Below, in pieces: positions 1-29,344 of a DNA stretch of 64,000 nt. The position numbers and the translations under genes were made by a program. The stretch is taken from positions 2,587 to 66,586 of the forward strand of contig CAKUCX010000002.1 in assembly GCA_934643865.1 (NCBI GenBank). Reading direction: 5' to 3'. The DNA comes from an uncultured Kiritimatiellota bacterium (GTDB lineage: Bacteria > Verrucomicrobiota > Kiritimatiellia > RFP12 > UBA1067). The notes beneath the pieces are model-generated. The model saw nothing but the letters and a program-made list of their open reading frames with translations. It was not told the origin of the DNA and ran no database searches. How positions within the stretch are numbered: position 1 is the stretch's first letter; each line of letters opens with the position of its first letter.

Positions 1-1332
1 ATGCGGCATGTCATCGACCGTGAAATCAACGCGCACGACAACATAGGCGCCCCCGGACAGCTCATGGGCGTGTATGACGCGAAGGAAGAGGAGAACATCG
101 TCGCACGCGCCTACCAGGCTGTGAAGAATGGCGCAGAGACCATTGCGGCCCTCGATTCGGCCATTGGCGAGGAGCGCGGCGGGACAGAGCCCGCCGCACA
201 GCACTCGGATGGTGAGGATAACGACTTCGACATCTTCTCTCTCGTAGGCGCTGGAGCTACGGCATTCGGCAACGATGAAAGTGTGAAGGATTCCGCGAAG
301 GCGCAGAAGAGCGAGCCGACGACGATATTCGCCTCCGAAAGCGACTATCTCGCCGCTGGCCTTGAGTTCATGCAGGGCGTGTCGCATTACAGATACGGGA
401 CGCTTCTCCGCGATGAACGCACAGGACTTCTTTCGCTCCCGATGACGGACGCTCTCAAATCATGGTGCAGACATGTCTTGCCTTACGAGCTGAGACGGCA
501 GATAGGCGACTCGAATGAGCTCAAGTTCACGACCGACGCCGTGGCGATGCAACGCGAGACACAATTTGCCCGTAGCCTGGCGGTGGCAGACTCTGATGAT
601 GAAGGCTCCGTTCCCGAAGAGGCCTGGCCGACAGTCTCCTACCTCTGGCCCCTCAATCCTGTCTCGCGCTGGATAACGGAGAACATTAACGCCACGTTTG
701 GATCGCTCTCCGCTCCTGTTCTTAGAATCGCCGGTCTCTCAAATCCCGTGTTCCTGATTTATGCGCAAGCCCCGAATGAACACGGTGAGCCCTTGGTTCA
801 GCAATGGTTTGTTGTTTCTTTCAAATGTGGCCGGACAGGGCCGGCCACACAAAACTCTTATCTGAGTGAAGTGTTGCCCGCTCCATCTGGCAACATCGCC
901 GCATTGCTTTCGCCATACGGGTTGGATACCCCTAAATTCTCCAATACCGCAGGGACGGATGAAACTCTTGGGTCAGATGAGATGGCCGTTCTCAATTCGC
1001 TGCGGCTTCCTGCAATAGAGGCGGTTAAGCCGCGTCTCGAGGAACTTGTTGCTGCATACGAAGCGGAGAATGCCCCTCGAAATGCGACACTTATGGAAAA
1101 GCTGAAGATCCGTCTCCGGGGTGCAATGGAGCAGCTGGAGTTTGTATTCGACGGCTACGATGAAGGCGTAAAGCGCATGCGCAGAAGATCGTTCGACAAC
1201 GCCAAGCGCAACAGACAGGACGCATATGACAACTTCAAGACGTGGACAGAGACGCACTGCACGCCGTCCCCGTACAGGCTATGCCAGATCATCGCAGTCC
1301 TGACGGGGAAGAAAGGAGGCGTCAATGGCTGA
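1..1332 (+). CDS. Hypothetical protein, 5'-truncated at the window edge. Its stop overlaps the start of the downstream methyltransferase (ATGGCTGA), so the two are translationally coupled. It carries an in-frame copy of the REP-like palindrome (aa segment KCGRTGPATQNSYLSEVLPAPSGNI).
   Basis: Long ORF in the supplied track running off the 5' edge. Start/stop overlap at 1325-1332. Palindrome tgtggccggacagggccggccaca at ~826-849 lies inside the ORF without breaking the frame. Confidence 0.5.
   Translation: MRHVIDREINAHDNIGAPGQLMGVYDAKEEENIVARAYQAVKNGAETIAALDSAIGEERGGTEPAAQHSDGEDNDFDIFSLVGAGATAFGNDESVKDSAKAQKSEPTTIFASESDYLAAGLEFMQGVSHYRYGTLLRDERTGLLSLPMTDALKSWCRHVLPYELRRQIGDSNELKFTTDAVAMQRETQFARSLAVADSDDEGSVPEEAWPTVSYLWPLNPVSRWITENINATFGSLSAPVLRIAGLSNPVFLIYAQAPNEHGEPLVQQWFVVSFKCGRTGPATQNSYLSEVLPAPSGNIAALLSPYGLDTPKFSNTAGTDETLGSDEMAVLNSLRLPAIEAVKPRLEELVAAYEAENAPRNATLMEKLKIRLRGAMEQLEFVFDGYDEGVKRMRRRSFDNAKRNRQDAYDNFKTWTETHCTPSPYRLCQIIAVLTGKKGGVNG
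824..895 (+). repeat. REP/MITE-like element, copy 1. Core 24-nt hairpin tgtggccggacagggccggccaca (9-bp stem, 6-nt loop), a conserved tail cacaaaactcttat, and a second module gtgttgcccgctccatctggcaaca. It sits in-frame inside the 1..1332 ORF.
   Basis: Direct sequence reading. The same core recurs at ~5754 and ~12783 in the same orientation. Confidence 0.8.
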
Positions 1333-4300
1333 GTTTATTGGCATCAGAAACGAGAACGAGTTTTACTTCGCCCATTACCTTTCGTCGCTCATGGACGACG
1401 AACTGAAGGAGATATGCTCGTCCGACGAGATGAAGGCCGCCTGCGACAAGCTCTACAAGCTCCAGCAGGAGTACCATGACTTGCAGGAGGCTCGGGAACT
1501 TGTCAAGCGTCGCCGCCCGGCTGCGTTTAGCGAGGACAGGACGGATTACTTTTCTAGACTCAGGGCGTTCCACTCCCATATTGCCGACATCCTTGGCTAT
1601 GCTGCTGACTGGATTTCACCAGGAACTCGTCTCTTCCCAGGCGCAAAGTTGACGGTCCCCGTCTCTGGCATTCTTGCCGGAAAGGATGGCAACGTACAAG
1701 CCGTCCTCATTGAATCCTGCTACGACTATGCGGCGAGCGTCCGTTTTTCAACTGAGGGCATTCTCGAGAATTTCCTGACATCGGAGCAGACAGCCGTCGA
1801 GGGCCTCCCCGAAGTCTCCAGGCAGATGCTTGCGGACAGGATATGCCTTGGCAAGTCAAAATCGGAAAAGCCGACCTGGGAGAACATCATCTCAAATGAG
1901 ATATTCTCCTCGGAAACTTCTCCCCGGTTCATAGTCGTATTGGGTGAGGATTCGATTCTGCTTGCAGATCAGAAAAAATGGCCAGAGAAGCGCACCCTCA
2001 TCTTCGAGCTGGATGAGATATATTCGCGGGGCGAACGAGCGACATTCAGGGCGATGGCAAGTCTTCTTTCCAAGACGGCTCTTGCGCCCGACGGCGCGAC
2101 GCCGCTTCCAGACAGGCTCGACGAGAACTCCCACAAGAACGCCTTTGGTGTCTCCAAGACGCTGCGCTATGCGATGCGTGAGGCGATTGAACTCCTTGGA
2201 AATGCGATATTGAGGGGAATGGGGAACGGGGAAGAGGGAGGGCGGCTGCCCTCAGCCGCCGAAGTATCGGCCCCTGCTCTTTCCAAAGAGTGCATCATTG
2301 TGATGTACCGCTTCCTGTTTGTGCTTTTCCTGGAGTCGCGCAAGGATCTCGGGTATTTCGAGACAACTCAGAATGTGGACGACATGTTCTGGAGTGCATA
2401 CGGCTTCGACCATCTTCGCGATCTCGAGACAGTGCCGCTCATGACAGACGCCGATAAAAGCGGGCACTACTTCGACCGCTCCATCAAGCAGCTGTTCGCA
2501 AAGATATGGTGGGGCATAGGAGAGAGGAAACAGGGAATAGGGAATAGGGAACAGGGGATAGCGAATGGGGAACAGGGAACTGGGAACAGGGAGGGTGTTG
2601 ATGCATTTAGAATCTTGCCATTGAAAGCACATCTCTTCGATCCAGAACGAACACCCTTGTTCAACGATGCAGAGATACCGAACGATGTTTGGCAGAGAAT
2701 CGTCTATTCGCTTTCCATTGGCGAGGCGGGAACGGGACGCCGCAAGCGCAAGGGCCGTATTTCGTATGCGCAACTCGGAATCCAACAGCTTGGCGCGGTC
2801 TATGAGGCGCTCCTGAGCTACACGGGCTTCAATGCGAAAACCGATCTCTATGAAGTCGCGGCGGCGGGTTCGGACATCTTCGACACCGGCTACTTCGTGA
2901 CAGCTGAAGACCTCAAGGACTACACGAACGAAGAAAAGGTCGCGAATTCAGACGGAACTCTCGTATGCCACCCAAGAGGGGCGTTCATCTACCGCATGGC
3001 TGGACGCGACCGCGAACGTTCGGCTTCATACTATACGCCGGAAGTCCTTACTCGCTGTCTCGTGCGTCTCGCCCTCAAGGAGCGCATCCCGGACGAAATG
3101 CCAGCGGACGAGGTGATGCAGCTTACCGTGTGCGAGCCAGCAATGGGGTCCGCCGCATTCTTGAACGAGGCAATCGACCAGCTCGCCGACATCTACCTCA
3201 AGAAGAAGCAGAAGGAGCTGAAGCGCACCATCCCCGTCGAGAGGTACGCGGCAGAAAAGGCTCGCGTAAAGATGGTGATAGCCGACAACAACGTCTTCGG
3301 CGTTGACCTGAACCCGACCGCCGCAGACCTCGCTGAAGTCTCGCTCTGGCTCGGCTCCATCGGTGGCGAGAGATTGCCGACCGGACAGGATTGCGACGAG
3401 CCGTACATCCCGTGGTTCGGCACCCAACTCAAGTGCGGCAACTCCATCATCGGATGCCGCCGTGAGGTCGTGTTCCGCGACGGAACGCGCAAGGCCGTTG
3501 GCTTCGGCGAGGATTTCCCGAAGAACGCCGTTTGGCACTTCCTCATACCCGACGAGGGCATGGCCATTAACCTTGACGCCGTCGTAAAAGGCATCGTAGG
3601 AGATGAAGTTGCCGAGCGGCTCAAGAAGTGGAAAAAGGCGTTTGCTCTCCCCGACAAAAAGCGACAGTACGAGAATTACGACAGAACCTGGAAGCGGATG
3701 AGCACGCTGTCTGAGGCGATTGACAAGATATGGAGAAGCGCGGCGGATGACATCGCCTCGCTCGACGAACGGACACGGGATGACGTGGCGTACTTTGGAC
3801 ACGAACCGAAGGCCAATGCAATCTCCGACTTGAAGACAAAAGACCGACAACTCTGGACGGAGCTTTCGCGTGACGAATACGGCAATATCGACTACTCGAA
3901 GTCGCTTGGTTCCGTATCTGACTATTTCCGCCTCAAGACGATCCTCGATCTTTGGTGTTCCCTTTGGTTTTGGCCGCTCGACAAGACGGAACGTCTGCCG
4001 ACTTGGGCTGATTTCGAGGCGGCCGTCAGGGTGCTGACAAGAAGCGACTTCGACGAGAAGGAACAGATGGAGCTGGACCTTGGCATCGGCGAGTTGCGCC
4101 TTACCACCGCCGGAACCGAGCTGGAAAAGGAATTCAAGAGGAACCCGACCCTTGGCAACCTTTACAAACTGTTCCCGTTCATCGAGACGTCCGAGGCAAT
4201 AGCCGAGCGTCATCACTTCCTGCACTGGGAGCTGGAGTTCGCGCCGGTGTTCAAGAATCGCGGCGGTTTCGACTTGATAATCGGAAACCCGCCGTGGGTG

Positions 4301-6181
4301 AATGTAGAATTTGATGAAGGTGGATTATTATCCGAATATGAGCCGAAGATCGCGGTACGCAATTATTCCGCTTCAGAAGTGGTGGCCGCAAGGAGGGGAT
4401 TGATATCAGATGAGACTGTCCATGATGGGTATTTAGACGAATATTCATGTGTTAACGGTCAACAGCATTTCCTAACATCTTCTAATAATTATCCTGATTT
4501 AGAGGGGATGAAGGCAAATCTGTTTCAGAATTTTGTCCCTTTAGCAATGAGGTTAATGAATCCTGACGCCATAACGGCATATGTCCATCCTGAAAATTTA
4601 TATTTGGATGCGAAAGGGGATAAAATTCGCCAAATGATTTATCCTAGGTTACTTTTACATGCGCAATTCAGAAATGAATTAAAGCTATTTGATATTGGGA
4701 ATACGCGTGTGTTTAGCCTCAATGTGTATGGACAGATAAAAGACCATGTCAAATTTAAGAATATCTCGACATTGTTCCACCCTTGTACGTTGGAGCAGTC
4801 TTTGAGTATGAGCGATTCAAGCGCTCCAATTCCGCTTGAGAAGACAAATGATGGTCATTGGAATTTGTGTGGTCATTGTGATAGGGTTGTAGATATTTCT
4901 AACGATGAATTGGCCTTGTTTGCAAAGTTTATTGATGGTGAAGGCGTTTCCCCATTGCAAACTAGATTACCTTCGATTTATTTGCGGCAGATAATAGGAA
5001 AGTTATTTCATGCATTTACAAATGTCCAATGCAAATTTGCTTCTAAAAACTTTGAGACTACTGAGTGTTGGGACCCTTCTGCTCACAATGAAGTTGGATT
5101 GATTGGAGGGAAAGCGACATTTCCATCAAATAGCTGTGATGAAATTTATTCTGGCCCGACCATCTTTGTCGCTAATCCAGTATATCAGACACCTCGCAAG
5201 AATTGTTCATCTCATCGCGATTATGAGATGGTTGACCTTACAGCAGTCAATGAAAGTTATCTTCCACGTTCGATTACAAATCGGAAAAGTGATTCAACTA
5301 CATATAGGGCCCATGTACCTGTTTGCCTTGGTAAGTGCATAAGTGATCAATTTAGAATTATTTGTAGATGTCGAATCGATCCCAAGGGGGAGCGAACATT
5401 GATACCGAGCATTTCCGCCAAAGAGTATTTGCATATAAATGGGATTATCTCTTATTGCTTTGACGATTTATCTGAATTGATCAATTCTTCAGGAACATGG
5501 TCTTCGATTCCATATGATTGGTTTATTCGTACGACCCAAAAAACTCATTTCCGAAAGGATATTGCACAATATCTTCCAGCCCTTCCTGACAACCCGATGA
5601 TTCGGGCACGTTCGCTTCTTTTGAATTGCGTGAACCGCGATTATGCTGATTTGTGGCGCGAGGCTTGGGATGATGCGTATTTGACTGATGGCTGGCTGTC
5701 GAGCGATCCAAGATTGACGAAGTGGGCTGATCATTTTGGGGGATGTGGCCGGACAGGGCCGGCCACACAACACTCTCATGAATGGCGGTGGGAGACGCCG
5801 CTTCGCACGCAACTCGACCGCCGTCAGGCGCTCGTTGAGCTTGATGTGATTGTGACGAAGGCACTGGGGTTGTCGCTTGATGATTTGCTGTTGATGTATC
5901 GCGTGTCGTTCCCAGTCCTGCGCAAGTACGAGGCCGACACCTACTACGATCAGAACGGACGGTGTGTGTTCTCGGCGAAGAGTGGCGAGTCGTATCTCTC
6001 GCGGCAGGAGTGGGAGTCAATCAAGGACATGAAGGAGGGCGAGTTCAAGAAGACGATCACCGAGACCGTCTTCAGCGACACGCTCACCGAGCGCACGATC
6101 ACCTACACGGCCCCGTTCTTCAAAAAGGATCGCGAGGCCGACTACAAAGAAGCCTGGGAAATGCTGGAGAAAAGGGATTGA
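1325..6181 (+). CDS. Large gamma-class N6-adenine DNA methyltransferase (PglX / Type IIG-IIL-like), 1618 aa, with a long N-terminal extension and a C-terminal TRD-like region.
   Basis: Motifs read from the translation: YTPE (motif X-like), CEPAMGSAAFL (motif I, FxGxG-like), GVDLNPTAADLAEVSLWL, CGNSIIG, HHFLHWELEFAPVF....GGFDLIIGNPPW (motif IV NPPW at nt ~4286-4297). The region after NPPW (nt ~4300-5750) is much more A+T-rich, as expected for a target-recognition domain. Confidence 0.75.
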   Translation: MAEFIGIRNENEFYFAHYLSSLMDDELKEICSSDEMKAACDKLYKLQQEYHDLQEARELVKRRRPAAFSEDRTDYFSRLRAFHSHIADILGYAADWISPGTRLFPGAKLTVPVSGILAGKDGNVQAVLIESCYDYAASVRFSTEGILENFLTSEQTAVEGLPEVSRQMLADRICLGKSKSEKPTWENIISNEIFSSETSPRFIVVLGEDSILLADQKKWPEKRTLIFELDEIYSRGERATFRAMASLLSKTALAPDGATPLPDRLDENSHKNAFGVSKTLRYAMREAIELLGNAILRGMGNGEEGGRLPSAAEVSAPALSKECIIVMYRFLFVLFLESRKDLGYFETTQNVDDMFWSAYGFDHLRDLETVPLMTDADKSGHYFDRSIKQLFAKIWWGIGERKQGIGNREQGIANGEQGTGNREGVDAFRILPLKAHLFDPERTPLFNDAEIPNDVWQRIVYSLSIGEAGTGRRKRKGRISYAQLGIQQLGAVYEALLSYTGFNAKTDLYEVAAAGSDIFDTGYFVTAEDLKDYTNEEKVANSDGTLVCHPRGAFIYRMAGRDRERSASYYTPEVLTRCLVRLALKERIPDEMPADEVMQLTVCEPAMGSAAFLNEAIDQLADIYLKKKQKELKRTIPVERYAAEKARVKMVIADNNVFGVDLNPTAADLAEVSLWLGSIGGERLPTGQDCDEPYIPWFGTQLKCGNSIIGCRREVVFRDGTRKAVGFGEDFPKNAVWHFLIPDEGMAINLDAVVKGIVGDEVAERLKKWKKAFALPDKKRQYENYDRTWKRMSTLSEAIDKIWRSAADDIASLDERTRDDVAYFGHEPKANAISDLKTKDRQLWTELSRDEYGNIDYSKSLGSVSDYFRLKTILDLWCSLWFWPLDKTERLPTWADFEAAVRVLTRSDFDEKEQMELDLGIGELRLTTAGTELEKEFKRNPTLGNLYKLFPFIETSEAIAERHHFLHWELEFAPVFKNRGGFDLIIGNPPWVNVEFDEGGLLSEYEPKIAVRNYSASEVVAARRGLISDETVHDGYLDEYSCVNGQQHFLTSSNNYPDLEGMKANLFQNFVPLAMRLMNPDAITAYVHPENLYLDAKGDKIRQMIYPRLLLHAQFRNELKLFDIGNTRVFSLNVYGQIKDHVKFKNISTLFHPCTLEQSLSMSDSSAPIPLEKTNDGHWNLCGHCDRVVDISNDELALFAKFIDGEGVSPLQTRLPSIYLRQIIGKLFHAFTNVQCKFASKNFETTECWDPSAHNEVGLIGGKATFPSNSCDEIYSGPTIFVANPVYQTPRKNCSSHRDYEMVDLTAVNESYLPRSITNRKSDSTTYRAHVPVCLGKCISDQFRIICRCRIDPKGERTLIPSISAKEYLHINGIISYCFDDLSELINSSGTWSSIPYDWFIRTTQKTHFRKDIAQYLPALPDNPMIRARSLLLNCVNRDYADLWREAWDDAYLTDGWLSSDPRLTKWADHFGGCGRTGPATQHSHEWRWETPLRTQLDRRQALVELDVIVTKALGLSLDDLLLMYRVSFPVLRKYEADTYYDQNGRCVFSAKSGESYLSRQEWESIKDMKEGEFKKTITETVFSDTLTERTITYTAPFFKKDREADYKEAWEMLEKRD
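5752..5789 (+). repeat. REP/MITE-like element, copy 2 (core hairpin plus cacaacactctcat tail only). It is in-frame inside the methyltransferase gene, at the junction between the low-GC TRD-like segment and the C-terminal region.
   Basis: atgtggccggacagggccggccacacaacactctcat read directly. It translates as GCGRTGPATQHSHE within the MTase ORF. Confidence 0.8.
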
Positions 6182-6199
6182 AACATAGGAGGTTTTTGT

Positions 6200-10095: not shown

Positions 10096-10110
10096 GGAAG
10101 TTTGTTGGTT

Positions 10111-11616
10111 ATGACTGTGCTTGAATTGTCAAATGAAAAGGCGTTGCAGTTCTTTATGGATCCGCAGAGTTACGGATCTACGGAGTTGCCGCCTTATTTT
10201 GATTTTTCAAGGACTTTGAATGTTGCTGAGTCATATATTGGACGCGTACGGGTTTCAAAGACACTTCTGCGCAAGGCGAGTGACGTTGAGGGGGTGAATT
10301 ATACCCTCGTGGATAATAAAGATGGCAAATATGCATGGCGACCGTTGCAATTTATTCATCCATTTCTCTATGCAAAACTTTGCCATGAGATAACTGCACC
10401 CGAAAATTGGGTCTTAATTTGTTCCAGATTCAAAGAGTTCGCTGGGATTCCGGCTATTCGATGCGCAAGTTATCCGTTGGTTAAGACTGTGAAGCCAAAA
10501 ATCAAGGCGGAACAGATCCTTGGCTGGTGGTCGAAGTTTGAGCAAGAATCGTTGGTGTCGGCGATGCGATATCGTTCCATGATTGTTACAGATGTGACAG
10601 ATTGCTATGGCTCAATTTATACGCATTCAATCGCTTGGGCATTACATGGAAAGGACGTTGCGAAGCAGAACAGGGATGGCTCTTTGCTCGGTAATACGAT
10701 AGATCGGTATATTCGTGCCATGCGATATGGCCAGACGAATGGCATCCCGCAGGGGTCAGTGTTGATGGATTTTATAGCTGAGATCGTTCTAGGAAGCATT
10801 GATGAGTGCCTCTATAAGAAACTGGAAGAGGAGAATATTCACGGATATGAGATACTGAGATATCGTGATGATTATCGCATTTTTGTCAACGATACTTCGA
10901 TCGGCGAAAAGGTCTTAAAGACATTGACGATTGTTCTTGCTGAATATGGCATGCGGCTCAATTCGGCGAAAACAAAGATGTCTGTCGATATAGTACGGGA
11001 TTCGGTTAAGGCCGATAAGGTTGCCTGGTTCTCGATTGAAAAGAATTATGAAACGTTGACAGCGGAAAAGAAGTTGTTGCTGCTATACGATCATGCGTCA
11101 CGGTTCCCCAACGCGGGCAGTGTGATGAAACCATTGGTTGATCTGCCAGAGGCGATTAAGTCTGCCTACTTTGGTGATCGGAATCAGATATCGGCCTGTA
11201 TATCAATCGCGACGGAGTTGGCCTATCGTAATCCACGTTGTTATCAATTGTGCATGGCTGTTGTGGCTCAGTTGTTGGACAGAATGGATGTTGTGACGCG
11301 CAGAGAAGTCGCAGGGGACATCTTGACTAAGTTTGGCCATTTGCCGAATACTGGTAGCTTGCAACTGTGGCTTCAGAGAATTATGATTCCATGTGGAATA
11401 TCTCTGGATTATCCTGAGGCGCTGTGTAAACGTGTTGAGAATGTGCCATGTAAGATATGGGAGAATGGATGGCTGGTAGAAGAGCCGGAGCTCGCTAATG
11501 CATTGGAAAGTGCGGAGATTGTGAACAATGAAGTTTTGCGTAACATCAATCCAACGATGTCGGATGATGAGATCAATCTCTTCATCATGCATTATCAGGA
11601 AAATTATCAGGGATAA
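10111..11616 (+). CDS. Reverse transcriptase of the defence-associated Abi/UG type (~500 aa, RT domain plus alpha-helical C-terminal region). No intron or retron RNA structure is evident.
   Basis: RBS GAGGAAG ~10 nt upstream of ATG 10111 (the track start at 10102 is a TTG). RT motifs: A = IVTDVTDCYGSIYTHSI, B' = NGIPQGSVLMDFIAEIVLG, C = ILRYRDDYRIFVN (YxDD), D = GMRLNSAKTKM. It begins 15 nt after the PHP-ATPase stop. Confidence 0.75.
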   Translation: MTVLELSNEKALQFFMDPQSYGSTELPPYFDFSRTLNVAESYIGRVRVSKTLLRKASDVEGVNYTLVDNKDGKYAWRPLQFIHPFLYAKLCHEITAPENWVLICSRFKEFAGIPAIRCASYPLVKTVKPKIKAEQILGWWSKFEQESLVSAMRYRSMIVTDVTDCYGSIYTHSIAWALHGKDVAKQNRDGSLLGNTIDRYIRAMRYGQTNGIPQGSVLMDFIAEIVLGSIDECLYKKLEEENIHGYEILRYRDDYRIFVNDTSIGEKVLKTLTIVLAEYGMRLNSAKTKMSVDIVRDSVKADKVAWFSIEKNYETLTAEKKLLLLYDHASRFPNAGSVMKPLVDLPEAIKSAYFGDRNQISACISIATELAYRNPRCYQLCMAVVAQLLDRMDVVTRREVAGDILTKFGHLPNTGSLQLWLQRIMIPCGISLDYPEALCKRVENVPCKIWENGWLVEEPELANALESAEIVNNEVLRNINPTMSDDEINLFIMHYQENYQG

Positions 11617-11634
11617 GTTTCAGAGGGGATTAAC

Positions 11635-12306
11635 ATGCGAAAATTTCGTAAAGGAATAAATCTGGAAGCGAGAATCAAATCGCTGGAGTTGACAAGGCGT
11701 TGGCTTGTGTTATGTGGTGGCTTACTGTCGTTGTTTGGTCTATCTCTTGGCGGTATGCTTTACAATGGATACTGCTTGTTGAAGGAGCGTGAAGCGGAGT
11801 TGAGGTCGGATTTTTCAAGGGTCACGATGGAATATATTTCGGCGACAAATGATTTGGCGGCGGTGCGAGCGGAGAGTCAATCTACGGCAATGACGGTCGC
11901 AAAGAAATGCGAAGAGCTGACGGGGCTGTGTTCTGAGATTGTGAGAAAAGCAGAAACAGCGAATGAGCTGGTGGAAGAGATCGGGTCGGATTGTCGTCTT
12001 GCACAAGACATGATTCGTAATCTTGATGAGTATGTTGCCAAGAGCTTAAAGACGTCTCCGCAAAGGTTTACAGTTGATGTGTCAGGGACCATGGCAAAAT
12101 GTACGCTTGTTGATGGTGTTGGCGTTCCATATTCAAGAACGGTGGCGGGGACGAGGGCAAACGCGTTGGTTGTTGTTCCTTCTGGATGTGTCTGCGTTGT
12201 GAGGCTTTCTGGGAAGATGTGTCGTGTCAGAATTCAATCTAAGATTCGCGACCGTGTTATTGTGGAGAATGGCGGTAAGATGGGTAAGGTTGAGTACTTT
12301 GATTAA
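11635..12306 (+). CDS. Small protein (223 aa) with a single N-terminal transmembrane helix (WLVLCGGLLSLFGLSLGGMLY) and a beta-rich Cys-containing C-terminal part. It is the last gene of the operon.
   Basis: ORF 18 nt downstream of the RT stop, with RBS-like gagggga. Hydrophobic stretch at aa ~22-43. Confidence 0.45.
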   Translation: MRKFRKGINLEARIKSLELTRRWLVLCGGLLSLFGLSLGGMLYNGYCLLKEREAELRSDFSRVTMEYISATNDLAAVRAESQSTAMTVAKKCEELTGLCSEIVRKAETANELVEEIGSDCRLAQDMIRNLDEYVAKSLKTSPQRFTVDVSGTMAKCTLVDGVGVPYSRTVAGTRANALVVVPSGCVCVVRLSGKMCRVRIQSKIRDRVIVENGGKMGKVEYFD

Positions 12307-12378
12307 GACAGAAAAGGCAAGCGTATGGTAATCCGCGGACATTGATAGTACTCGGGAGAAGAGAGCGGTTTAGACAAC

Positions 12379-13527
12379 ATGAAGACGCAAACGGCAACAG
12401 TAAAGATGACGAAAGCCACCATGAAGCGGCTGAAGGGCTTTGATTACAAGAAGCTCTATTTCTACATGGTGACGCTGAAACGCCGGAAAGGCCTGCGGCC
12501 ATTTTGCGAGATTACGAAGGTGAAAGAGCCGCCAAAAGACGCAAAGGGAAGACCGCGCTATCTAATCGCCAACGAGTTGACCGAGGCTTTTTCGCGTGTG
12601 ATCAGCGAGTTTCACACGAAGTGGTGGGGTATTTGGCCGATCGAATGCTTCATTATCATGCCCGATCATCTTCACCTACTGATCCACATCAAAGATACTG
12701 GCGATCAGATGGCGCTTGGGAAGTATGTTTACCAGTTGATGAAGGCGCTTGCGGTGGAATACTGGCGCTTGACGGGGCAGGATGTGGCCGGACGGGGCCG
12801 GCCACACAACACTCTTATCGAAGAGAAAGGGGGCTCTTTTAATCAGAGTGGTGTGTTGCCCGCTCCATCGTGCAACATTCCCCAGCCCGCTCCATCGGGC
12901 AACACCTTCCAGTCCGCTCCATCGGGCAACAATGCGAAGCTCGCCCCCATCTTCGAGCGCGATTGGCATGATTGGATTGTTAAGAAAGACGGGCAGCTTG
13001 CGGCCTTTACGCGCTACATTCGCGAAAACCCCGAGCGGGCTTGGCTCAGGCAACAGAACCGGCAGTATTTCGGCACGGTTCTGAAAGTTTCCTTTCTCGG
13101 GCGTGAGTGGTTCGCCTACGGCAATCTGGCGATTCTTGAGTTGCCGGTCTTGAAGGCAGTGAAGGGCCATCGCGCCACGAAGCCTGGTTCGCCCGAATGG
13201 CAGGCGCTCGTTGATGAATGTGCGCGCATCGGGCCGGGCGGCGCAGGCGTGGGCACGTTCATGAGCCCGCTGGAGAAAGAATGCGGCAACGCCATCGCCG
13301 CAGCCGGCGGCAAGTGGGTGGTCCTCTCGCCTGAGGGCTTCCATGAACGTTGGCATCCAGTGCGGCAATACGAAAAGTATTGCGCCGAAGGGCGAATGCT
13401 CTTCCTCTCGCTTTATCCGGTGATGGATCGCCAGCCGACCAAGCAGGAGCTTTACCATCGCTGCCACGAGATGGGTGATATCGCGGTGGCAGGGCTAGGT
13501 GGTAGTGACTGCGGAAATGTTGTATAA
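12379..13527 (+). CDS. IS200/IS605-family Y1 (HUH) transposase, RAYT-like, carrying an in-frame ~55-aa REP/tandem-repeat insertion between its HUH motif and its catalytic Tyr motif.
   Basis: KLYFYMVTLKRRKGL (first beta-strand, cf. YHxVWxxKYRR), IMPDHLHLLIHI (HUH) at aa ~94-104, FTRYIRENPERAW (YIxxNP Tyr motif) at aa ~210-220. HUH-to-Tyr spacing is ~114 aa, which becomes ~60 aa (canonical) once the repeat-encoded segment is removed. Confidence 0.65.
   Translation: MKTQTATVKMTKATMKRLKGFDYKKLYFYMVTLKRRKGLRPFCEITKVKEPPKDAKGRPRYLIANELTEAFSRVISEFHTKWWGIWPIECFIIMPDHLHLLIHIKDTGDQMALGKYVYQLMKALAVEYWRLTGQDVAGRGRPHNTLIEEKGGSFNQSGVLPAPSCNIPQPAPSGNTFQSAPSGNNAKLAPIFERDWHDWIVKKDGQLAAFTRYIRENPERAWLRQQNRQYFGTVLKVSFLGREWFAYGNLAILELPVLKAVKGHRATKPGSPEWQALVDECARIGPGGAGVGTFMSPLEKECGNAIAAAGGKWVVLSPEGFHERWHPVRQYEKYCAEGRMLFLSLYPVMDRQPTKQELYHRCHEMGDIAVAGLGGSDCGNVV
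12781..12934 (+). repeat. REP/MITE-like element, copy 3. The core hairpin variant tgtggccggacggggccggccaca and tail are followed by three tandem ~27-bp units (c[ca]g[ct]ccgctccatcgggcaaca-like). All of it is in-frame inside the RAYT-like transposase gene.
   Basis: Direct reading. It translates as AGRGRPHNTLIEEKGGSFNQSGVLPAPSCNIPQPAPSGNTFQSAPSGNN, which sits between the HUH motif and the catalytic Tyr motif of the transposase. Confidence 0.8.
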
Positions 13528-13544
13528 TTTTAACGGAGGCTCTT

Positions 13545-15200
13545 ATGTCATTACCAGTAAACATTGACGACCTGATCAACCACCGCAAGGTGGAGTGGGC
13601 TCGTATCGAGTACAAGGAAGGGTGGAATCCAGAGCGGATTGTCCACACGATCTGCGCTTTTGCCAATGACATCGATAACTGGGGCGGCGGATATGTCATT
13701 ATCGGCATTGCCGAGGAAAACGGGCGTCCCGTGTTCCCGGTAAAGGGGATTGGGCCGAATGAGGTGGATCATATTCAGAAGGAGTTGCTGAACGTCTGTC
13801 ATCTCATCGAGCCGGTCTATATGCCGGTCGTCGAGCCGTGCGTGTACGAGGGCAAGCATCTACTGATCGTCTGGGTGCCGGGTGGGTGTGAGCGTCCGTA
13901 TAAATGCCCAGAGCATATTGTCAAGGACGTCAAGTCGCCAAAGGCTTACTATATCCGCAAACTAGCGAGCACCGTCAAGGCGACACGTCAGGACGAGAAA
14001 GAACTCTTTGAGCTGACTGGGGATGTGCCGTTTGATGACCGCCCGAATGTTCATGCCGACATTACCGACCTCAAGATGAATCTGCTGGTCGAGTATCTAC
14101 ATGAGGTCGGAAGTGATCTCGCGAGCAATGCCGAGGACATGTCGGTCGCCGATGTAGCCCGTAACATGCAGATTGCGGCCGGACCGGCTGAATGCTTCAA
14201 GCCGAAGAATGTGGGACTTATGTTCTTCAATCCGCATCCTGAGAATTTCTTCCGTTGCGCATGGATTGATGTCGTTGACAAACCAGATCCGACCGGCGAG
14301 GGTATGGTCGAGCAAACGTTCCGGGGGCCGCTTCATGTGCAGCTCCGCTCGGCGCTTGACTACATCAGGAACCGCTTTCTGCGTGAAAAGATATTCAAAT
14401 ACGATGATCGGCCAGAGGCTGGCCGATTCTGGAACTACCCCTATCGTGCCATCGAAGAGGTGCTTGCAAACGCCGTCTATCACAAGTCGTATCGAATTGC
14501 AGAGCCTATTACCGTCGTGGTGACACCCGAGGCGATGACGATTTCAAGTCTGCCCGGGCCAGAACGGTCAATAACGGATGCCGATCTCGCTGCTTGTCGT
14601 ATGATTGGCCTCCACTATCGCAACCGTCGTATCGGAGACTTCCTCAAGGAACTCGACCTGGTTGAAGGGCGTAATACGGGCATTCCTGTTGTCGTGAATG
14701 TCATGCGTGAGAACGGGTCGCCGCCGCCAGTCTTTTCGTCTCCCGAAAATCGAGATTGGCTCACCGTCACGTTGCCGGTCAATCCTCATTTCTGTGAAAT
14801 GGAGAGTTCCATTTCACAGAGAACTGCATTGAAAACTGCATTAACTTCGCATAGAGAAACAAACAACGATAATGACGAAGAAAGTGGTGAATTGGCGGAT
14901 CATGGGCGCATTGCCGAAGTTATGACGGCTGAAGAGGAGTTGGAGCATATAAAAGTTGCGCTGAAAACTGCGCTGAAAACTGCGCTGATACACCGCCCTG
15001 CCAAGGTAGTTGAAAGAATGGGAATTTTGCTACAACAATTGCTTAGGGATAAAGATATCACGATCGTTGCGTTGGCGAGTTTTCTTGGTGCTTCCAGGAG
15101 AACTGTTCAGGAGGATATTGCCGTTTTGAAGAACCTCAAGGTTCTAAATCGCATCGGCCCAGACAATGGTGGTGAATGGGTTGTTCTTCTCCGTTTCTGA
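13545..15200 (+). CDS. AlbA_2 (Schlafen-like) domain, HATPase_c-like domain and a C-terminal winged-HTH: a putative regulator of the type common in defence islands.
   Basis: N-terminus HRKVEWARIEYKEGW (AlbA_2 E..EFK-type motif). Mid/C region LHYRNRRIGDFLKELDLVEGRNTGIPVVVNVMRENGSPPPVF (HATPase_c_4-like). ALKTALKTAL repeat, then ...ASFLGASRRTVQEDIAVLKNLKVLNRIG (wHTH). Confidence 0.6.
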   Translation: MSLPVNIDDLINHRKVEWARIEYKEGWNPERIVHTICAFANDIDNWGGGYVIIGIAEENGRPVFPVKGIGPNEVDHIQKELLNVCHLIEPVYMPVVEPCVYEGKHLLIVWVPGGCERPYKCPEHIVKDVKSPKAYYIRKLASTVKATRQDEKELFELTGDVPFDDRPNVHADITDLKMNLLVEYLHEVGSDLASNAEDMSVADVARNMQIAAGPAECFKPKNVGLMFFNPHPENFFRCAWIDVVDKPDPTGEGMVEQTFRGPLHVQLRSALDYIRNRFLREKIFKYDDRPEAGRFWNYPYRAIEEVLANAVYHKSYRIAEPITVVVTPEAMTISSLPGPERSITDADLAACRMIGLHYRNRRIGDFLKELDLVEGRNTGIPVVVNVMRENGSPPPVFSSPENRDWLTVTLPVNPHFCEMESSISQRTALKTALTSHRETNNDNDEESGELADHGRIAEVMTAEEELEHIKVALKTALKTALIHRPAKVVERMGILLQQLLRDKDITIVALASFLGASRRTVQEDIAVLKNLKVLNRIGPDNGGEWVVLLRF

Positions 15201-15210
15201 GGTGACTAAC

Positions 15211-18200
15211 ATGATGCCATCTATCGTAGGCAGAGAATTGGAAGAGCGCTTCGCGTGCCTCTTGAAGACACAGTTTTGTGTTCGGGAGGATGGTGGATTT
15301 CGCCATCTCTGGGAGGACTTTTTCTCACGTGGCGAGAAACTCATCAAGGGACCATATCTTGAGCTGCCGCTACCATACCGGAAGTCCACCGATGCCGCAG
15401 CGCTTACCCGATTTTCGCCTGCGATAGAAAAGCTGCCGTTTCCGCCATACAAACATCAGGTTCGGGCATTCGACAGGATCGGGGCCTTCAAGTCGACGCT
15501 TGTCGCGACAGGCACGGGTTCCGGCAAGACGGAATGCTTCTCGTTGCCGATCCTCGCGCACTGTGCAAAGTACGCTGGCGAGAATGGCATAAGGGCGATA
15601 TTGATCTACCCGATGAATGCGCTCGCCACAGACCAGGCAAAACGCCTCGCGGAGCTTATTTGCAAGAATGCAGGGCTTAAGGGCGTCCGAGTCGGCTTGT
15701 ATATTGGCGAGGGCAAGTCGAGACGCGGCGGGGCGCGGGCATCGCGCCCTGCCACGTGGCGCGAGGTTGGTTATGACGCAGCAACGCAGTCGTACCATGT
15801 CATCACTGACCGAGGGACTATTCTAAACGAACCGCCGCACATACTGCTTACCAACTACAAGATGCTGGACTACCTCCTTCTCCGGCCGAAGGAGAGGATA
15901 CTCTGGCGGTTCAACAAGAATCCGGACATTTTTAAGTTCCTGGCCGTCGACGAGCTTCACACATTTGACGGTGCGCAGGCCGCAGACCTTGCCTGCTTGC
16001 TGAGGCGTCTGAAGGAATACCTCAGGCTACCGGATGAGAACCTTTGCTGCATTGGAACATCCGCAACTCTCGGTTCGTCCGACAAGGCGTCCGACGGCAT
16101 AAGGAAATACGCAGAAAAAGTATTCAGCTCGTCCTTCCCGCCAGAATCGCTCGTCACGGAAGACAGATACACTTTTGACGAGATGGCCGCCGGGACCAAA
16201 GATCCGATTTTTGCCATGCCGGTGGCAAGGACGCTCTTCGGGGCACTAAAGGGTCCGTCGAAAACCCCGGACTCACTGTCGGACATCGTAGTCAAGGCGG
16301 CGGACGACGAACTCTGGGACAATGCCCCTAAGACCAAGCATGAGGCCAGCGAAATGATACTGGACTTCTGCGGCAAGCTTTCTAAGCTGCGTGCTGATAA
16401 AGGCAGGGACTACCCGGACGTCAAGTTCCAGTACTGGATTCGGGAAATGGCCAGACTCGTGGCAAACGTTCCGTACGAGTTGAGCGACGGTGGATTGCGG
16501 CCCCAGCTGCGCTTTGCCGACGACCTGGAAGACCCTGACAGGATGATAGACGGCAAGGTTCGCCACTTTCCGCTCGACAACTGCAACGTCTGCGGTGCAA
16601 CGGCATGGATCGGGCTTATCGGCCGCGACGGAGCTCATGTCGAAGGAACTCGTCGTCAGATATACAACGAGTATTTTGCGCATCACGGCGGAGAGGACGT
16701 CAGGTTCCTTTATCCGCTTGCAGGGGGCGGCGGTCACGCGGGACGCGTGACCCTACCAATCAAGAAGCTTTGCGGAAAGTGCTGCCGCCTGAACCCTGAT
16801 TCTGCCGAGAAGTGTGAATGCGGGAACGACAAGCTTATTCGCGTCGCGGTGGCCAAGAATGGCGACGCTTGCCCCTGGTGCGGTCATGACCACGGAAACA
16901 GGCTGCTCGTCGGCATGCGATCTGCAACCATGCTTTCGACATGCATATCCACGCTGACCACTTCTCCGCACAACGGCGACAAGAAGATACTGACGTTCAG
17001 CGACAATGTGCAGGACACGTCGCAACGCGCCGGATTCTTCGGAGGTCGGACGTGGGCGGCGACGTTTCGGGCGCACCTCGCGCAGTATTTCACTTCGCTT
17101 GGGGTGGAAGAAGTCGGCTACAGTAAGTTTATCGACGGCTTTTACGCCTATCTAAAGAAACGACTTTCAGACGACAGGGATATTCTTGCCGAGCTGATCC
17201 CACAGGATTTGAAATGGCTCAATGCGTGGCGCGCGCTCAAGGGGAACGATCCTCCAGTTCCCGATGCACGTACCATGAAGGCGTTGATGGCGCGCCTCAG
17301 GTGGGAGATCGCGATGGAGCTTGGCTGCGGCCAGCACCTTGGCAGAACACTTGAACGTATGGGTGTTCTGCGGCTAGAGATGGCGATCCCTGACTCTCTT
17401 GCTGAGGAGGAGCGGCGCTTTCTTGAACGGATCACCCCAGACATGGTAAAGGCTGGGGCATTTGAGGACCTGGCGTTGCTGAACTCCAAGGGCGATGCCT
17501 GGTCATCAATCCTTACGACCGCCCTGAATCGTGGCGGCATAAAGTTCATTAATGGACTTGATGCGGCTGGAATCCCCGTGTACAAGTCCAAGCGTTCCGC
17601 GGAACCTCGCGTTCCAGGCACAACCTTAGGCAAGAAGAAGTATGCCATACTGAGTGAGATAGCCGATCCGCGCGATGCAGAGATGCTTGCGCTGCTGGCG
17701 AAGAAAGGTATCGTTCGCGAGTTCACGCACACGGACGGCACTACAAAGTATTGGTATCTGTCCATAGGGTCCCTTGTCGTCCGAAAGCATCCTGATGCGT
17801 GCGCGTGCGCCGAGAATCCTTTTCACAAGCAGTATCTCAGTGGCGACATACACAGGGTTAACCCCGCTGAGCATACAGGTCTCTTGAAAAGAGAAGAACG
17901 CGAGGCCCTCGAGACCCGGTTCAAGGCAAAGGACTCGCGCAAGTGGGACCCGAACCTCATTTCCGCTACGCCGACGCTTGAGATGGGCGTGGACATCGGC
18001 GATCTTTCGAGCGTTCTTCTTTGCAGTGTCCCGCCGACGCAGTCGAAGTTCATTCAGCGTGTAGGCCGTTCCGGGCGCAGGAACGGAAGTGCGCTCAACA
18101 TCACGGTCGCGGCTTCCTCGCCGCACGACCTATACTTCTTCCGGGACCCGGCGGCGATGATCTCCGGCAGCGTGACCTCGCCTGGTGTGTTTCTTGACGC

Positions 18201-27193: not shown

Positions 27194-27242
27194 TGCAATG
27201 GCCACCGCTTGTGCGGTGGCTTTTGTTCTGCGGAGCATCCCT

Positions 27243-28031: not shown

Positions 28032-29344
<1,313 letters not shown>

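What the first reader, a model, noticed from the sequence alone, without database searches (positions are those of the whole stretch)
12379..13527. RAYT-like Y1 transposase interrupted in-frame by its own REP-like element and a tandem repeat
Seen in sequence: the IS200-type HUH motif (MPDHLHLLI) and the Tyr motif (RYIRENP) are separated by ~114 aa instead of the usual ~60. The excess corresponds exactly to palindrome copy 3 plus the 3x27-bp tandem array. Established: REP-associated tyrosine transposases mobilise REPs that normally flank them. Finding a REP inside the RAYT catalytic domain is unusual, and it is unclear whether the enzyme remains active. The gene also has ~60 extra N-terminal and ~160 extra C-terminal residues relative to a minimal IS200 TnpA.
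Basis: partly seen in the sequence, partly recalled or inferred. Interest (0 to 1): 0.55.

Follow-up and report, generated by a model that had tools for sequence, protein, structure and literature searches.

The report
REP hairpins inside their own transposase-like gene
A bacterial gene for a DNA-hairpin-cutting enzyme (a domesticated transposase fused to a DprA-like DNA-binding domain) carries copies of the small palindromic repeats it most likely handles inside a floppy loop of its own coding sequence, without losing its reading frame; this kind of thing has been described before in other bacteria, but not for this enzyme family or this bacterial group.

Summary
ORF 12379-13527 (382 aa) has an intact HUH motif (H97-L-H99) and a Tyr motif (Y213-IRENP) 116 residues apart. 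The excess is a REP-type palindrome (12784-12805), a spacer, an inverted second unit and a 27-bp array (12858-12931). AlphaFold/Foldseek give an IS200/RAYT-like Y1 fold plus a previously unannotated DprA-like C-terminal domain. The insert is a disordered loop between helix alphaC and strand beta4. It is not a one-off interruption. In about 1150 Kiritimatiellae homologues this loop is hypervariable and built from lineage-specific hairpins with an 8-bp stem and 6-nt loop (68 observed against 0.6 in shuffles). Stems co-vary, the loop ACRGGG is conserved, and all three reading frames are used. The same hairpins flank the gene in many homologous loci. In this window they sit in frame in two other genes, one insertion being absent from an orthologue. 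dN/dS of 0.03-0.09 on both sides indicates a working gene. In-frame REP insertions inside RAYT genes (TnpAY1 subclass 2.4) and in unrelated ORFs (Opitutus terrae) are published. This is therefore a new variant of a known kind: a new Y1 subfamily, domain fusion, insertion site and phylum.

The parts
12379..13527 (+). Gene for a 382-aa two-domain protein: a RAYT/IS200-like Y1 HUH nuclease domain followed by a DprA-like Rossmann domain
   Evidence: ORF. 1152 homologues. AF2 mean pLDDT 82.8, pTM 0.74. Foldseek hits to DprA, ISDra2 TnpA and the RAYT-REP complex 4er8. dN/dS 0.03-0.09.
12427..13068 (+). Y1 HUH core (aa 17-230): beta1 28-35, alphaA 66-81, beta2/3 91-104, alphaC 113-132, beta4 192-201, Tyr helix 204-226
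   Evidence: Secondary structure of the AF2 model. Foldseek 2xm3 E=8.8e-4 and 4er8 E=1.6e-3. Weak Y1_Tnp / REP_Tyr_transpos HMM hits.
12667..12675 (+). HUH motif H97-L98-H99 (within MPDHLHLLI)
   Evidence: Invariant in 63 aligned homologues.
13015..13032 (+). Catalytic Tyr motif Y213-I-R-E-N-P (class-2 'Y---NP' signature)
   Evidence: Y213, I214, E216 and N217 are invariant. Signature as defined in PMC6006769.
12775..12948 (+). Hypervariable, disordered linker (aa 133-190) between alphaC and beta4, encoded by REP-derived DNA
   Evidence: pLDDT below 50 for residues 136-184. The HUH-to-WHD distance ranges from 49 to 147 aa among homologues.
12780..12818 (+). Left REP unit: ATGT + hairpin GTGGCCGG-ACGGGG-CCGGCCAC (12784-12805) + ACAACACTCTTAT. 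It has a GTGG foot and a CCAC counter-foot.
12819..12846 (+). Spacer of the doublet. It includes a 25-nt stretch absent from the L008 orthologue and from the dispersed copy at 827.
   Evidence: DNA alignment.
12847..12880 (-). Right REP unit in inverted orientation: hairpin GTTGCCCG-CTCCAT-CGTGCAAC (12855-12876; loop is the reverse complement of ATGGAG). Together with the left unit it forms a REPIN-like doublet.
12858..12931 (+). 27-bp tandem array (2.7 copies), a partial duplication of the right unit (loop + 3' arm + tail). Copy number varies from 1 to 3 among orthologues that are at least 88 % identical.
   Evidence: TRF. Repeat families. P0001-P0010 linkers. DNA alignment.
13081..13512 (+). 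DprA-like alpha/beta (Rossmann-type) C-terminal domain (aa 235-378), containing the invariant GTFMSPLEK and GRMLFLS motifs
   Evidence: AF2. Foldseek 4ljr E=7.6e-6, 3uqz, 3maj, and ShosA 8zva 4.8e-4. Conservation.
823..895 (+). Dispersed REPIN-like doublet (hairpins 827-848 and 873-894) lying in frame inside ORF 1..1332 (peptide CGRTGPATQNSYLSEVLPAPSGN)
   Evidence: The same insert is present in the L008 orthologue.
5741..5779 (+). Single REP unit in frame inside the type IIG restriction-modification gene 1325..6181. It is a 10-codon insertion absent from the L008 orthologue.
176..197 (+). Variant REP-type hairpin GCGGCGGG-ACAGAG-CCCGCCGC in frame in ORF 1..1332 (peptide GGTEPAAQHS). The same stem is used in the linkers of other lineages.

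Best explanation
The gene encodes a functional, mostly vertically inherited RAYT-like enzyme: a Y1 HUH single-strand DNA nuclease/ligase fused to a DprA-like ssDNA-binding domain. Its cognate substrates are a lineage-specific family of REP/REPIN-type DNA hairpins with an 8-bp G+C-rich stem and a conserved 6-nt loop ACRGGG. As in REPtrons, these hairpins accumulate next to the enzyme's gene. In this Kiritimatiellae clade they have also colonised a permissive, disordered surface loop (alphaC-beta4) inside the coding sequence. The units contain no stop codons in any forward frame. Selection therefore acts only on keeping the frame open, not on the peptide. The loop turns over by insertion, tandem duplication, deletion and compensated frameshifts. 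Shown here: the fold, the intact catalytic motifs, purifying selection, hairpin enrichment and covariation, flanking copies in relatives, and presence/absence of in-frame copies in other genes. Inferred: that this enzyme binds, cleaves and mobilises these hairpins, and that the loop does not affect catalysis.
For: Fold and domains: the AF2 model is confident except for the linker. The N-domain matches ISDra2 TnpA and the E. coli RAYT-REP complex, and the C-domain matches DprA and ShosA. HUH and Y-IxEN-P are invariant in 63 homologues.

Linker: its length varies from 49 to 147 aa. Its peptides are the three-frame translations of one palindrome.

Hairpin enrichment: perfect 8/6 hairpins occur at 5.5 per kb in linkers against 0.09 per kb far from the gene. 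In 72 non-redundant linkers there are 68, against a mean of 0.63 (maximum 4) in 200 dinucleotide shuffles.

Covariation: anchoring on the loop motif alone, 31 of 100 occurrences in linkers have perfect 8+8 stems, with 16 different stems and covariation at nearly every pair. Outside the gene the figure is 2 of 830.

Flanking copies: the same stems flank the gene in L002, L009, L016, L018, L070, L074, L076 and others. A distant short-linker member, L091, is flanked by a 122-nt structured repeat on both sides.

Dispersed copies and function: the window holds in-frame dispersed copies at 176, 827 and 5745, and the ORF2 copy is absent from the orthologue. dN/dS is 0.03-0.09 on both sides of the insert. 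A compensated frameshift (4-nt and 25-nt indels) around the left REP separates the window from L008.

Inheritance and precedent: synteny is kept between genomes whose Y1 proteins are only 59-70 % identical. Only one copy lies in the 64 kb. The precedent is PMC6006769 and PMC3733652.
Against: There is no biochemical evidence. In this window the gene has no flanking REPs. Only about four REP loci exist in 64 kb, all inside a low-GC island, and none lies in the 36 kb of about 70 % GC DNA. Genome-wide dispersal could not be measured. HMM scores to the curated RAYT and Y1_Tnp models are below their cut-offs. The canonical GT[AG]G foot is present in this lineage (GTGG) but not in most other lineages. 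About 13 of 72 linkers have no detectable hairpin. Another, unseen Y1 enzyme elsewhere in the genome could be the real mobiliser.
Confidence: 0.7

Rival explanations
1. The intragenic hairpins are kept because they act in cis. They could be a binding site through which the enzyme regulates its own gene, an mRNA structure tuning translation or stability, or a protected 'master copy' that keeps the REP population and its enzyme linked. This is not exclusive of the main explanation.
For: Hairpins are present in 59 of 72 non-redundant linkers across a clade whose members are only about 50 % identical. The doublet order (forward unit, then inverted unit) and the loop are conserved while the stems co-vary. 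According to PMC6006769, the alphaC-beta4 region lies next to the REP-recognition surface in the E. coli enzyme.
Against: Thirteen linkers lack hairpins, and the shortest linkers (49-58 aa) are hairpin-free. Distant family members have short linkers. Copy number and spacing vary between near-identical orthologues, as expected for tolerated passengers.
Confidence: 0.15
2. The gene plus its flanking hairpins is an autonomous IS200/IS605-type insertion sequence. The flanking hairpins would be its left and right ends, and the internal ones accidental self-insertions.
For: The Y1 fold resembles ISDra2 TnpA. Gene contexts differ between deep lineages. In L091 the two flanking structured repeats are direct, as IS200/IS605 ends are. 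In this window the gene sits in a compositionally foreign island.
Against: The Tyr motif is Y---NP (class 2), not the Y---Q of IS200 transposases. No tnpB is present. There is one copy in 64 kb. The same neighbours are kept while the Y1 proteins diverge to 59-70 % identity and the neighbours to 49-81 %. Here the hairpins are dispersed without the gene. This copy has no flanking hairpins.
Confidence: 0.07
3. The region is an ordinary low-complexity, G+C-rich disordered linker that grows by replication slippage. The palindromes would be incidental and unrelated to the enzyme.
For: The linker is disordered and contains tandem repeats. Some distant homologues have unrelated low-complexity linkers (P0124, P0220, P0247).
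Against: There is a hundred-fold excess of perfect hairpins over dinucleotide shuffles. The loop is conserved while the stems co-vary. Identical units occur outside the gene, in its flanks and in other genes.
Confidence: 0.05
4. The insertion inactivated the enzyme, and the ORF is a decaying relic.
For: The HUH-to-Tyr spacing is doubled. HMM scores are below their cut-offs.
Against: dN/dS is 0.03-0.09 upstream and downstream of the insert at dS 0.37-0.64. All catalytic and about 75 other positions are invariant in 63 homologues. The two-domain model is confident.
Confidence: 0.02

Closest known systems
TnpAY1 subclass 2.4 tnpAREP genes with in-frame REP insertions (Quentin, Siguier, Chandler & Fichant 2018, BMC Genomics 19:475, PMC6006769)
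   Same: [quoted passage not shown] The inserted region is variable in length and sequence and is predicted to be peripheral. 'Double-foot' REPs (GT[AG]G ... C[TC]AC) exist there, as in this window (GTGG...CCAC).
   Different: Subclass 2.4 proteins have about 194 aa with motifs NH[IFV]H / WQ / YIxNNP. Their insertion lies between beta3 and alphaC, and they occur in Cyanobacteria and Bacteroidetes. Here the protein has 320-480 aa with motifs DH[LI]H / WH / YIRENP. The insertion lies between alphaC and beta4, there is an extra DprA-like C-terminal domain, the host is Kiritimatiellae, and most lineages lack a GTRG foot.
Canonical RAYT/REP-REPIN systems (E. coli TnpAREP, PDB 4er8; Pseudomonas RAYTs; Nunvar 2010, Bertels & Rainey 2011, Ton-Hoang 2012)
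   Same: A single-copy, vertically inherited Y1 HUH enzyme. Its cognate short palindromes are arranged as inverted doublets, cluster around the gene and are dispersed elsewhere. Enzyme and repeat co-evolve.
   Different: The HMM score is far below the family cut-off. There is an extra DprA-like domain. The REPs here lie inside coding sequences rather than in extragenic DNA. Copy number in the genome is unknown.
Intragenic in-frame REPs and RPEs (Di Nocera et al. 2013, PMC3733652: Opitutus terrae GTAG-17..20; Rickettsia palindromic elements)
   Same: Palindromic units and dimers encoding about 10-30 aa are inserted in frame in functional genes. O. terrae (the PVC superphylum, like Kiritimatiellae) has the most, with the foot mutated to GTGG as here.
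   Different: Those reports concern DNA-repair and other genes. Here the hosts are the enzyme's own gene, a type IIG restriction-modification gene and an unknown neighbouring ORF in a defence island.
DprA / Smf and the DprA-like defence protein ShosA
   Same: The C-terminal domain has the same Rossmann-type fold that binds ssDNA in DprA (Foldseek probability 1.00, E=7.6e-6).
   Different: There is no sequence-level match to Pfam DNA_processg_A. The domain is fused to a Y1 nuclease. There is no SAM or winged-helix DprA accessory domain.
IS200/IS605 TnpA (ISDra2, IS608)
   Same: The HUH/Y1 fold and the recognition of subterminal DNA hairpins.
   Different: The Tyr motif is Y---NP rather than Y---Q. 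There is no tnpB. The gene is apparently single-copy and syntenic. The protein is larger and has two domains.

Membership tests
RAYT / TnpAREP (class 2 of the TnpAY1 superfamily) | HUH/Y1 fold with an HuH motif and a Y---NP tyrosine motif | tested here: met
   H97-L-H99 and Y213-IRE-NP are invariant. AF2 and Foldseek match 4er8, 2xm3 and 2ec2.
RAYT / TnpAREP (class 2 of the TnpAY1 superfamily) | Scores above the curated family HMM thresholds (NCBIfam NF047646, Pfam PF01797) | tested here: not met
   NF047646: 32 bits against a cut-off of 80. PF01797: 14 bits against 23. Short-linker relatives reach 22.7-23.3 bits on PF01797.
RAYT / TnpAREP (class 2 of the TnpAY1 superfamily) | Gene flanked by its cognate REPs (REPtron arrangement) | tested here: inconclusive
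   Not met for the window gene, which has no hairpins within 400 nt. Met in many homologous loci (L002, L009, L016, L018, L070, L074, L076, L091).
RAYT / TnpAREP (class 2 of the TnpAY1 superfamily) | Single copy per genome and vertical inheritance | tested here: inconclusive
   One copy in 64 kb. Synteny is kept at 59-70 % Y1 identity. Complete genomes were not available, and this copy lies in a low-GC island.
RAYT / TnpAREP (class 2 of the TnpAY1 superfamily) | The enzyme binds and cleaves its REP | not testable with these tools
   This needs biochemistry.
REP / REPIN repeats | Short (20-40 nt) imperfect palindrome, often paired as an inverted doublet able to form a larger hairpin | tested here: met
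   The units are about 38 nt with an 8-bp stem and a 6-nt loop. Left and right units are inverted, and the spacer arms are complementary. DNA folding z = -3.6 and -3.9.
REP / REPIN repeats | 5' GT[AG]G foot | tested here: inconclusive
   GTGG (with a 3' CCAC) in the window, L001, L008 and L009. It is absent from most other lineages (stems GGTGCCGG, GCGGCGGG, TGTCGCGG and others).
REP / REPIN repeats | Tens to hundreds of dispersed copies per genome, mostly extragenic | not testable with these tools
   Only 4 loci in 64 kb, all intragenic. A peptide-based census failed.
TnpAY1 subclass 2.4 (REP-in-gene RAYTs) | Motifs NH[IFV]H / WQ / YIxNNP, about 194 aa, insertion between beta3 and alphaC | tested here: not met
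   Motifs DHLH / WH / YIRENP, 382 aa, insertion between alphaC and beta4, compared with Table 1 of PMC6006769.
IS200/IS605 transposase (subclass 1.1) | Y---Q motif, about 150 aa core only, multicopy, often with tnpB | tested here: not met
   Y---NP motif, two domains, one copy in the window, no tnpB nearby.
DprA / Smf (Pfam DNA_processg_A) | Sequence match to the family model | tested here: not met
   No Pfam or NCBIfam hit. The similarity is seen only at the fold level.
Diversity-generating retroelement target (considered because an RT gene lies 760 nt upstream) | A DGR-type RT with a template repeat matching the variable region with A-specific mismatches | tested here: not met
   The RT is AbiP2 (PADLOC E=1e-178). 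It is absent from homologous loci. The repeats are palindromes, not a TR/VR pair.

The most novel reading that the evidence does not exclude
Throughout a whole clade of Kiritimatiellae, a REPIN-like replicator is physically nested inside the coding sequence of the enzyme that propagates it, so that repeat and enzyme are inherited as one unit. The hypervariability of the loop would then be the footprint of the enzyme acting on its own gene. The enzyme would represent a new, widespread class of hairpin-processing HUH proteins (about 3000 clusters at 50 % identity) defined by a Y1 + DprA-like fusion. In this class the DprA-like domain would load the nuclease on single-stranded DNA at replication forks or on incoming DNA.
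Probability: 0.2. Interest if true: 0.65.

Novelty: new variant of a known kind. Interest (0 to 1): 0.42.

Why it matters
REP/REPIN-RAYT pairs are the best-studied case of a long-lived, vertically inherited 'replicator plus domesticated transposase' in bacteria. They are known almost only from Proteobacteria and Cyanobacteria. This locus extends the phenomenon to rumen and gut Kiritimatiellae and to an unannotated Y1 + DprA-like protein family that standard HMM cut-offs miss. It also supplies about 80 natural variants of one permissive loop. In these variants the DNA hairpin, not the peptide, is conserved, which is a ready-made data set for deducing the recognition code (loop ACRGGG plus any 8-bp stem). 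The locus further shows REP units being gained and lost in frame inside defence genes. This matters for annotation, because repeat-derived peptides and false N- and C-terminal extensions can mislead gene calls, and it bears on how such genes diversify.

Tried and rejected
(1) A DGR or RT-driven origin of the variable region was rejected. The neighbouring RT is AbiP2 and is not conserved next to homologues.

(2) A known structured RNA was not found. There were no Rfam matches at E<=1 in 1-16000. The promoter/terminator scan was at background level.

(3) The profile search against PDB sequences gave only E=0.18 to ISDra2 TnpA. Fold comparison was needed.

(4) The genome-collection scan with the 26-mer GTGGCCGGACRGGGCCGGCCACACAA found only the orthologous gene in MAG RGIG2765.

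(5) The census of proteins carrying the REPIN-encoded peptide failed. The 27-aa alignment was too short. A 54-aa concatemer found no candidate in the word index.

(6) The first synteny clustering was inflated by antisense shadow ORFs. It was redone with nearest non-overlapping neighbours.

(7) No conserved operon partner was found. The AlbA_2/SLFN gene downstream is shared only with the closest relatives (L001, L008). Other lineages have glycoside hydrolases, ResB, glutamine synthetase and other neighbours.

(8) Source annotations for distant family members gave only 'hypothetical protein'.
Full report
OBSERVATION. The ORF 12379-13527 (+, 382 aa) is real. It contains MPDHLHLLI (H97/H99) and RYIRENP (Y213), 116 residues apart. 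Four elements lie between them. The first is a perfect palindrome, GTGGCCGG-ACGGGG-CCGGCCAC, at 12784-12805. The second is a spacer. The third is a second hairpin, GTTGCCCG-CTCCAT-CGTGCAAC, at 12855-12876. The fourth is a 27-bp tandem array at 12858-12931 (TRF: 2.7 copies, 87 % matches). The 22-nt palindrome occurs exactly three times in the window (827, 5745, 12784), and none of 100 shuffles gives as many matches. The copies share flanking sequence (ATGT...ACAACACTCTTAT). The copy at 827 also shares the second hairpin.

ANATOMY OF THE INSERT. Read on the opposite strand, the second hairpin and its flank (ATGTTGCACGATGGAGCGGGCAACACACCACTCTGAT) is a diverged copy of the first unit (ATGTGGCCGGACGGGGCCGGCCACACAACACTCTTAT). 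The insert is therefore an inverted doublet of a unit of about 38 nt, which is the architecture of a REPIN. The 27-bp array is a partial triplication of the right unit. As single-stranded DNA the region folds much better than shuffles do (z = -3.6; z = -3.9 for the copy at 827).

THE PROTEIN. Sequence models give only weak hits: Pfam Y1_Tnp at E=0.058, and NCBIfam REP_Tyr_transpos at 32 bits against a cut-off of 80. A profile search against PDB sequences gives E=0.18 to ISDra2 TnpA. An AlphaFold2 model built from 63 homologues is confident (mean pLDDT 82.8, pTM 0.74). The exceptions are residues 1-15, 136-184 and 378-382. The order of elements is beta1 (28-35), helix (66-81), beta2/3 with HUH (91-104), helix alphaC (113-132), a disordered linker, beta4 (192-201), and the Tyr helix (204-226). 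An alpha/beta domain follows (235-378).

Foldseek against the PDB matches the C-terminal domain to DprA (4ljr E=7.6e-6; 3uqz; 3maj) and to the DprA-like defence protein ShosA (8zva). It matches the N-terminal domain to ISDra2 TnpA (2xm3, E=8.8e-4), the E. coli RAYT-REP complex (4er8, E=1.6e-3) and a Sulfolobus IS200 transposase. The protein is therefore a Y1 HUH enzyme of the class-2 'Y---NP' type fused to a DprA-like, presumably ssDNA-binding, domain.

This architecture is widespread. A profile search of 1.84 billion representatives finds 3049 clusters at E<=1e-3 and 811 at E<=1e-10, typically of 300-340 aa. Short-linker members reach the Pfam Y1_Tnp threshold across HUH to Tyr (P0270, 23.3 bits).

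THE LINKER IS A CLADE-WIDE FEATURE. The gene has 1152 detectable homologues, almost all from rumen and gut metagenomes and Kiritimatiellae MAGs. The two flanking parts are 60-98 % identical to the query. The stretch between ...EYWR and PIFERDWHDW differs in every lineage, with 49 to 147 residues from HUH to WHD. The linker peptides recur in three forms: GRGRPHNTL, CGRTGPATQHS and (M)ADGTAIDSTRM. These are the three reading frames of one G+C-rich palindrome or its variants. They are followed by S-V-V-L-P-A-P-S-G-N, which is the right-hand hairpin and is often multiplied.

Distant members of the wider family have short linkers of 5-12 residues (P0151, P0157, P0159, P0174, P0199). The long linker is therefore a derived state.

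I fetched 80 homologous loci and scanned them for perfect hairpins with an 8-bp stem and a 6-nt loop. The counts are 72 in 13.1 kb of linker DNA (5.5 per kb), 0.48 per kb in the rest of the gene, 0.42 per kb in the 400-nt flanks, and 0.09 per kb further away. In 72 non-redundant linkers there are 68 such hairpins, against a mean of 0.63 (maximum 4) in 200 dinucleotide-preserving shuffles.

To avoid circularity I also anchored on the loop motif alone. Of 100 ACRGGR occurrences in linkers, 31 are flanked by perfectly complementary 8-mers, with 16 different stems and GC/CG/TA/AT exchanges at nearly every pair. Outside the gene the figure is 2 of 830. The typical order is a forward unit (loop ACGGGG or ACAGGG) followed by an inverted unit (loop CCCCGT or CCTCGT). 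The DNA hairpin is what is conserved, not the peptide.

'ITS OWN' ELEMENT. In many loci the same stems occur just outside the coding sequence.
- L002 has TGTTGCCAG-YYCCGT-CTGGCAACA twice upstream, once in the linker and once at the 3' end, and nowhere else in 21 kb.
- L076 has two copies upstream, a doublet at the 5' end, a doublet in the linker and two copies downstream.
- L009, L016, L018, L070 and L074 are similar.
- This explains why some database proteins (P0038, P0050, P0102) show the same peptides as spurious N- and C-terminal extensions.
- A distant, short-linker member (L091) is flanked on both sides by a 122-nt, 90 % identical, multi-hairpin repeat.
- P0080/L004 carries a further in-frame hairpin in the beta1-alphaA loop.

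The association of enzyme gene and hairpin family is thus a property of the family. The window gene itself has no flanking copies.

DISPERSED, IN-FRAME COPIES IN OTHER GENES. In the window the only other convincing copies are at 176, at 827/873 (a doublet) and at 5745. All lie inside long ORFs, in frame. Two are in the partial ORF 1..1332 and one is in the type IIG restriction-modification gene 1325..6181 (PADLOC E=6e-208).

The syntenic locus L008 (Y1 protein 84 % identical) gives direct presence/absence evidence. The 10-codon unit at 5745 is missing from the L008 orthologue. L008 in turn has a REP-containing insert about 450 codons upstream that the window lacks.

Between the window and L008 the linker differs by a 4-nt indel 5' of the left unit and a 25-nt indel in the spacer. 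The left unit is therefore read in different frames (AGRGRPHNTL against CGRTGPATQHS), and the frame is restored afterwards. L009 shows a compensated stem change (GTGGCTGG...CCAGCCAC). The array has one, two or three copies among orthologues that are at least 88 % identical.

IS THE GENE ALIVE, AND IS IT MOBILE? Nei-Gojobori dN/dS against L001 and L008 is 0.08 for the part upstream of the linker. It is 0.03-0.09 for the part downstream, at dS 0.37-0.64. About 75 positions, including HUH and Y-I-x-E-N, are invariant in 63 sequences. The gene is under strong purifying selection on both sides of the insert.

Only one copy is present in the 64 kb. Neighbouring genes differ between deep lineages. 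They are nevertheless conserved between genomes whose Y1 proteins are only 59-70 % identical (L015/L036, L014/L023, and L045/L051/L075/L078). This fits vertical inheritance of a domesticated gene better than an active insertion sequence.

One caveat applies. In this window the gene sits in a 27-kb stretch of 44-57 % G+C full of defence genes: the type IIG enzyme, a Ppl-like PHP-ATPase, an AbiP2 reverse transcriptase, an SLFN/AlbA_2 protein, a DruE-like helicase and a UvrD-like helicase. This stretch abuts tRNA genes and 36 kb of about 70 % G+C DNA. All REP copies lie in the low-GC part.

COMPARISON WITH WHAT IS KNOWN. Quentin et al. 2018 (PMC6006769) classify Y1 proteins into 12 subclasses. 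[quoted passage not shown] These insertions lie in frame and generally between HuH and Y, in a variable peripheral region. The authors also describe 'double-foot' REPs, and they note that some subclass 2.8 genes carry a REP insertion. Di Nocera et al. 2013 (PMC3733652) list in-frame intragenic REPs in several species. The highest number is in Opitutus terrae (Verrucomicrobia), where the foot is mostly GTGG, as here.

The phenomenon is therefore established. What differs is the following.
- The motifs are DHLH / WH / YIRENP.
- The insertion site is alphaC-beta4. According to that paper, this region neighbours the REP-recognition surface in the E. coli enzyme.
- The protein is larger and carries the DprA-like domain, which none of the described subclasses has.
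- The host phylum is different.
- Most lineages lack a GTRG foot.
- Nearly the whole clade carries the insert.

MECHANISM, WITH STATUS OF EACH STEP. Shown: the Y1 fold with intact catalytic residues, purifying selection, hairpin enrichment and covariation in the linker, identical hairpins flanking the gene in relatives, and gain and loss of in-frame units in other genes. Inferred from the established behaviour of RAYT and IS200/IS605 enzymes: the protein recognises the hairpin on single-stranded DNA (loop ACRGGG plus stem), then cleaves and rejoins it, which spreads units preferentially nearby. The stop-free, G+C-rich units survive inside genes only where they land in frame in tolerant loops, and the alphaC-beta4 loop of the enzyme's own gene is one such place. 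The DprA-like domain probably supplies ssDNA binding. Whether the internal copies have a cis function, such as autoregulation or a protected master copy, is open.

VERDICT. This is a new variant of a known kind, of moderate interest.

Noticed in passing
window 1-27200 versus 28000-64000: There is an abrupt composition change from 44-57 % G+C to 68-71 % G+C. It falls at tRNA-Met (27119-27193), TrmO (27198-28025), tRNA-Leu (28032-28113) and TGT (28127-29344). This is either a low-GC defence island inserted next to tRNA genes or an assembly chimera. All REP copies lie in the low-GC part.
   Followed up: partly
window 1325-6181 (+), 7432-10095 (+), 10102-11616 (+), 13545-15200 (+), 15166-21288 (+), 21281-23443 (+): This is a dense defence island. 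It holds a type IIG RM enzyme (PADLOC E=6e-208), a Ppl-like PHP + ABC-ATPase, an AbiP2 reverse transcriptase (E=1e-178) followed by a 223-aa coiled-coil/TM protein (11635-12306), an SLFN/AlbA_2 + HATPase_c_4 + HTH protein, a 2040-aa DruE-like helicase with an MZB domain but no other Druantia genes, and a UvrD-like helicase.
   Followed up: partly
window about 2520-2600 (ORF2 aa about 400-425): There is a second variable spot in the type IIG gene. The window has 7-aa tandem repeats (GIGNREQ / GIANGEQ / GTGNRE) where the L008 orthologue has TGPTGQDSYAG.
   Followed up: no
L008 3655-3760: The orthologous type IIG gene carries a different in-frame insert that the window lacks. It contains a REP unit (GTGGCCGG-ACGGAA-CCGGCCAC) followed by another G+C-rich palindrome.
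   Followed up: partly
L004 10119-10140 (and L005-L007, L021, L023): A further REP-type hairpin (GGCGCCGG-ATGGGC-CCGGCGCC) is inserted in frame in the beta1-alphaA loop of the Y1 domain (9-aa insert PGWRRMGPA in P0080). This is a second permissive site in the same enzyme.
   Followed up: partly
L091 2862-2983 and 3950-4071: A distant, short-linker member of the Y1 + DprA-like family is bracketed by two direct copies (about 90 % identical) of a 122-nt repeat containing four small hairpins. It lies between glutamate synthase and glutamine synthetase genes. The arrangement could be REPtron-like or IS-like.
   Followed up: partly
window 12676-13467 (-) and L008 7719-10517 (-): Long antisense 'shadow' ORFs (263 and 932 aa) overlap the Y1 gene. 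They are artefacts of G+C-rich coding sequence, and they misled an automatic synteny clustering.
   Followed up: yes
P0038, P0050, P0102 (database proteins): Gene callers extended these homologues through flanking REP copies. This gives false N- and C-terminal extensions rich in VLPAPSGN and GPAHNTL peptides.
   Followed up: partly
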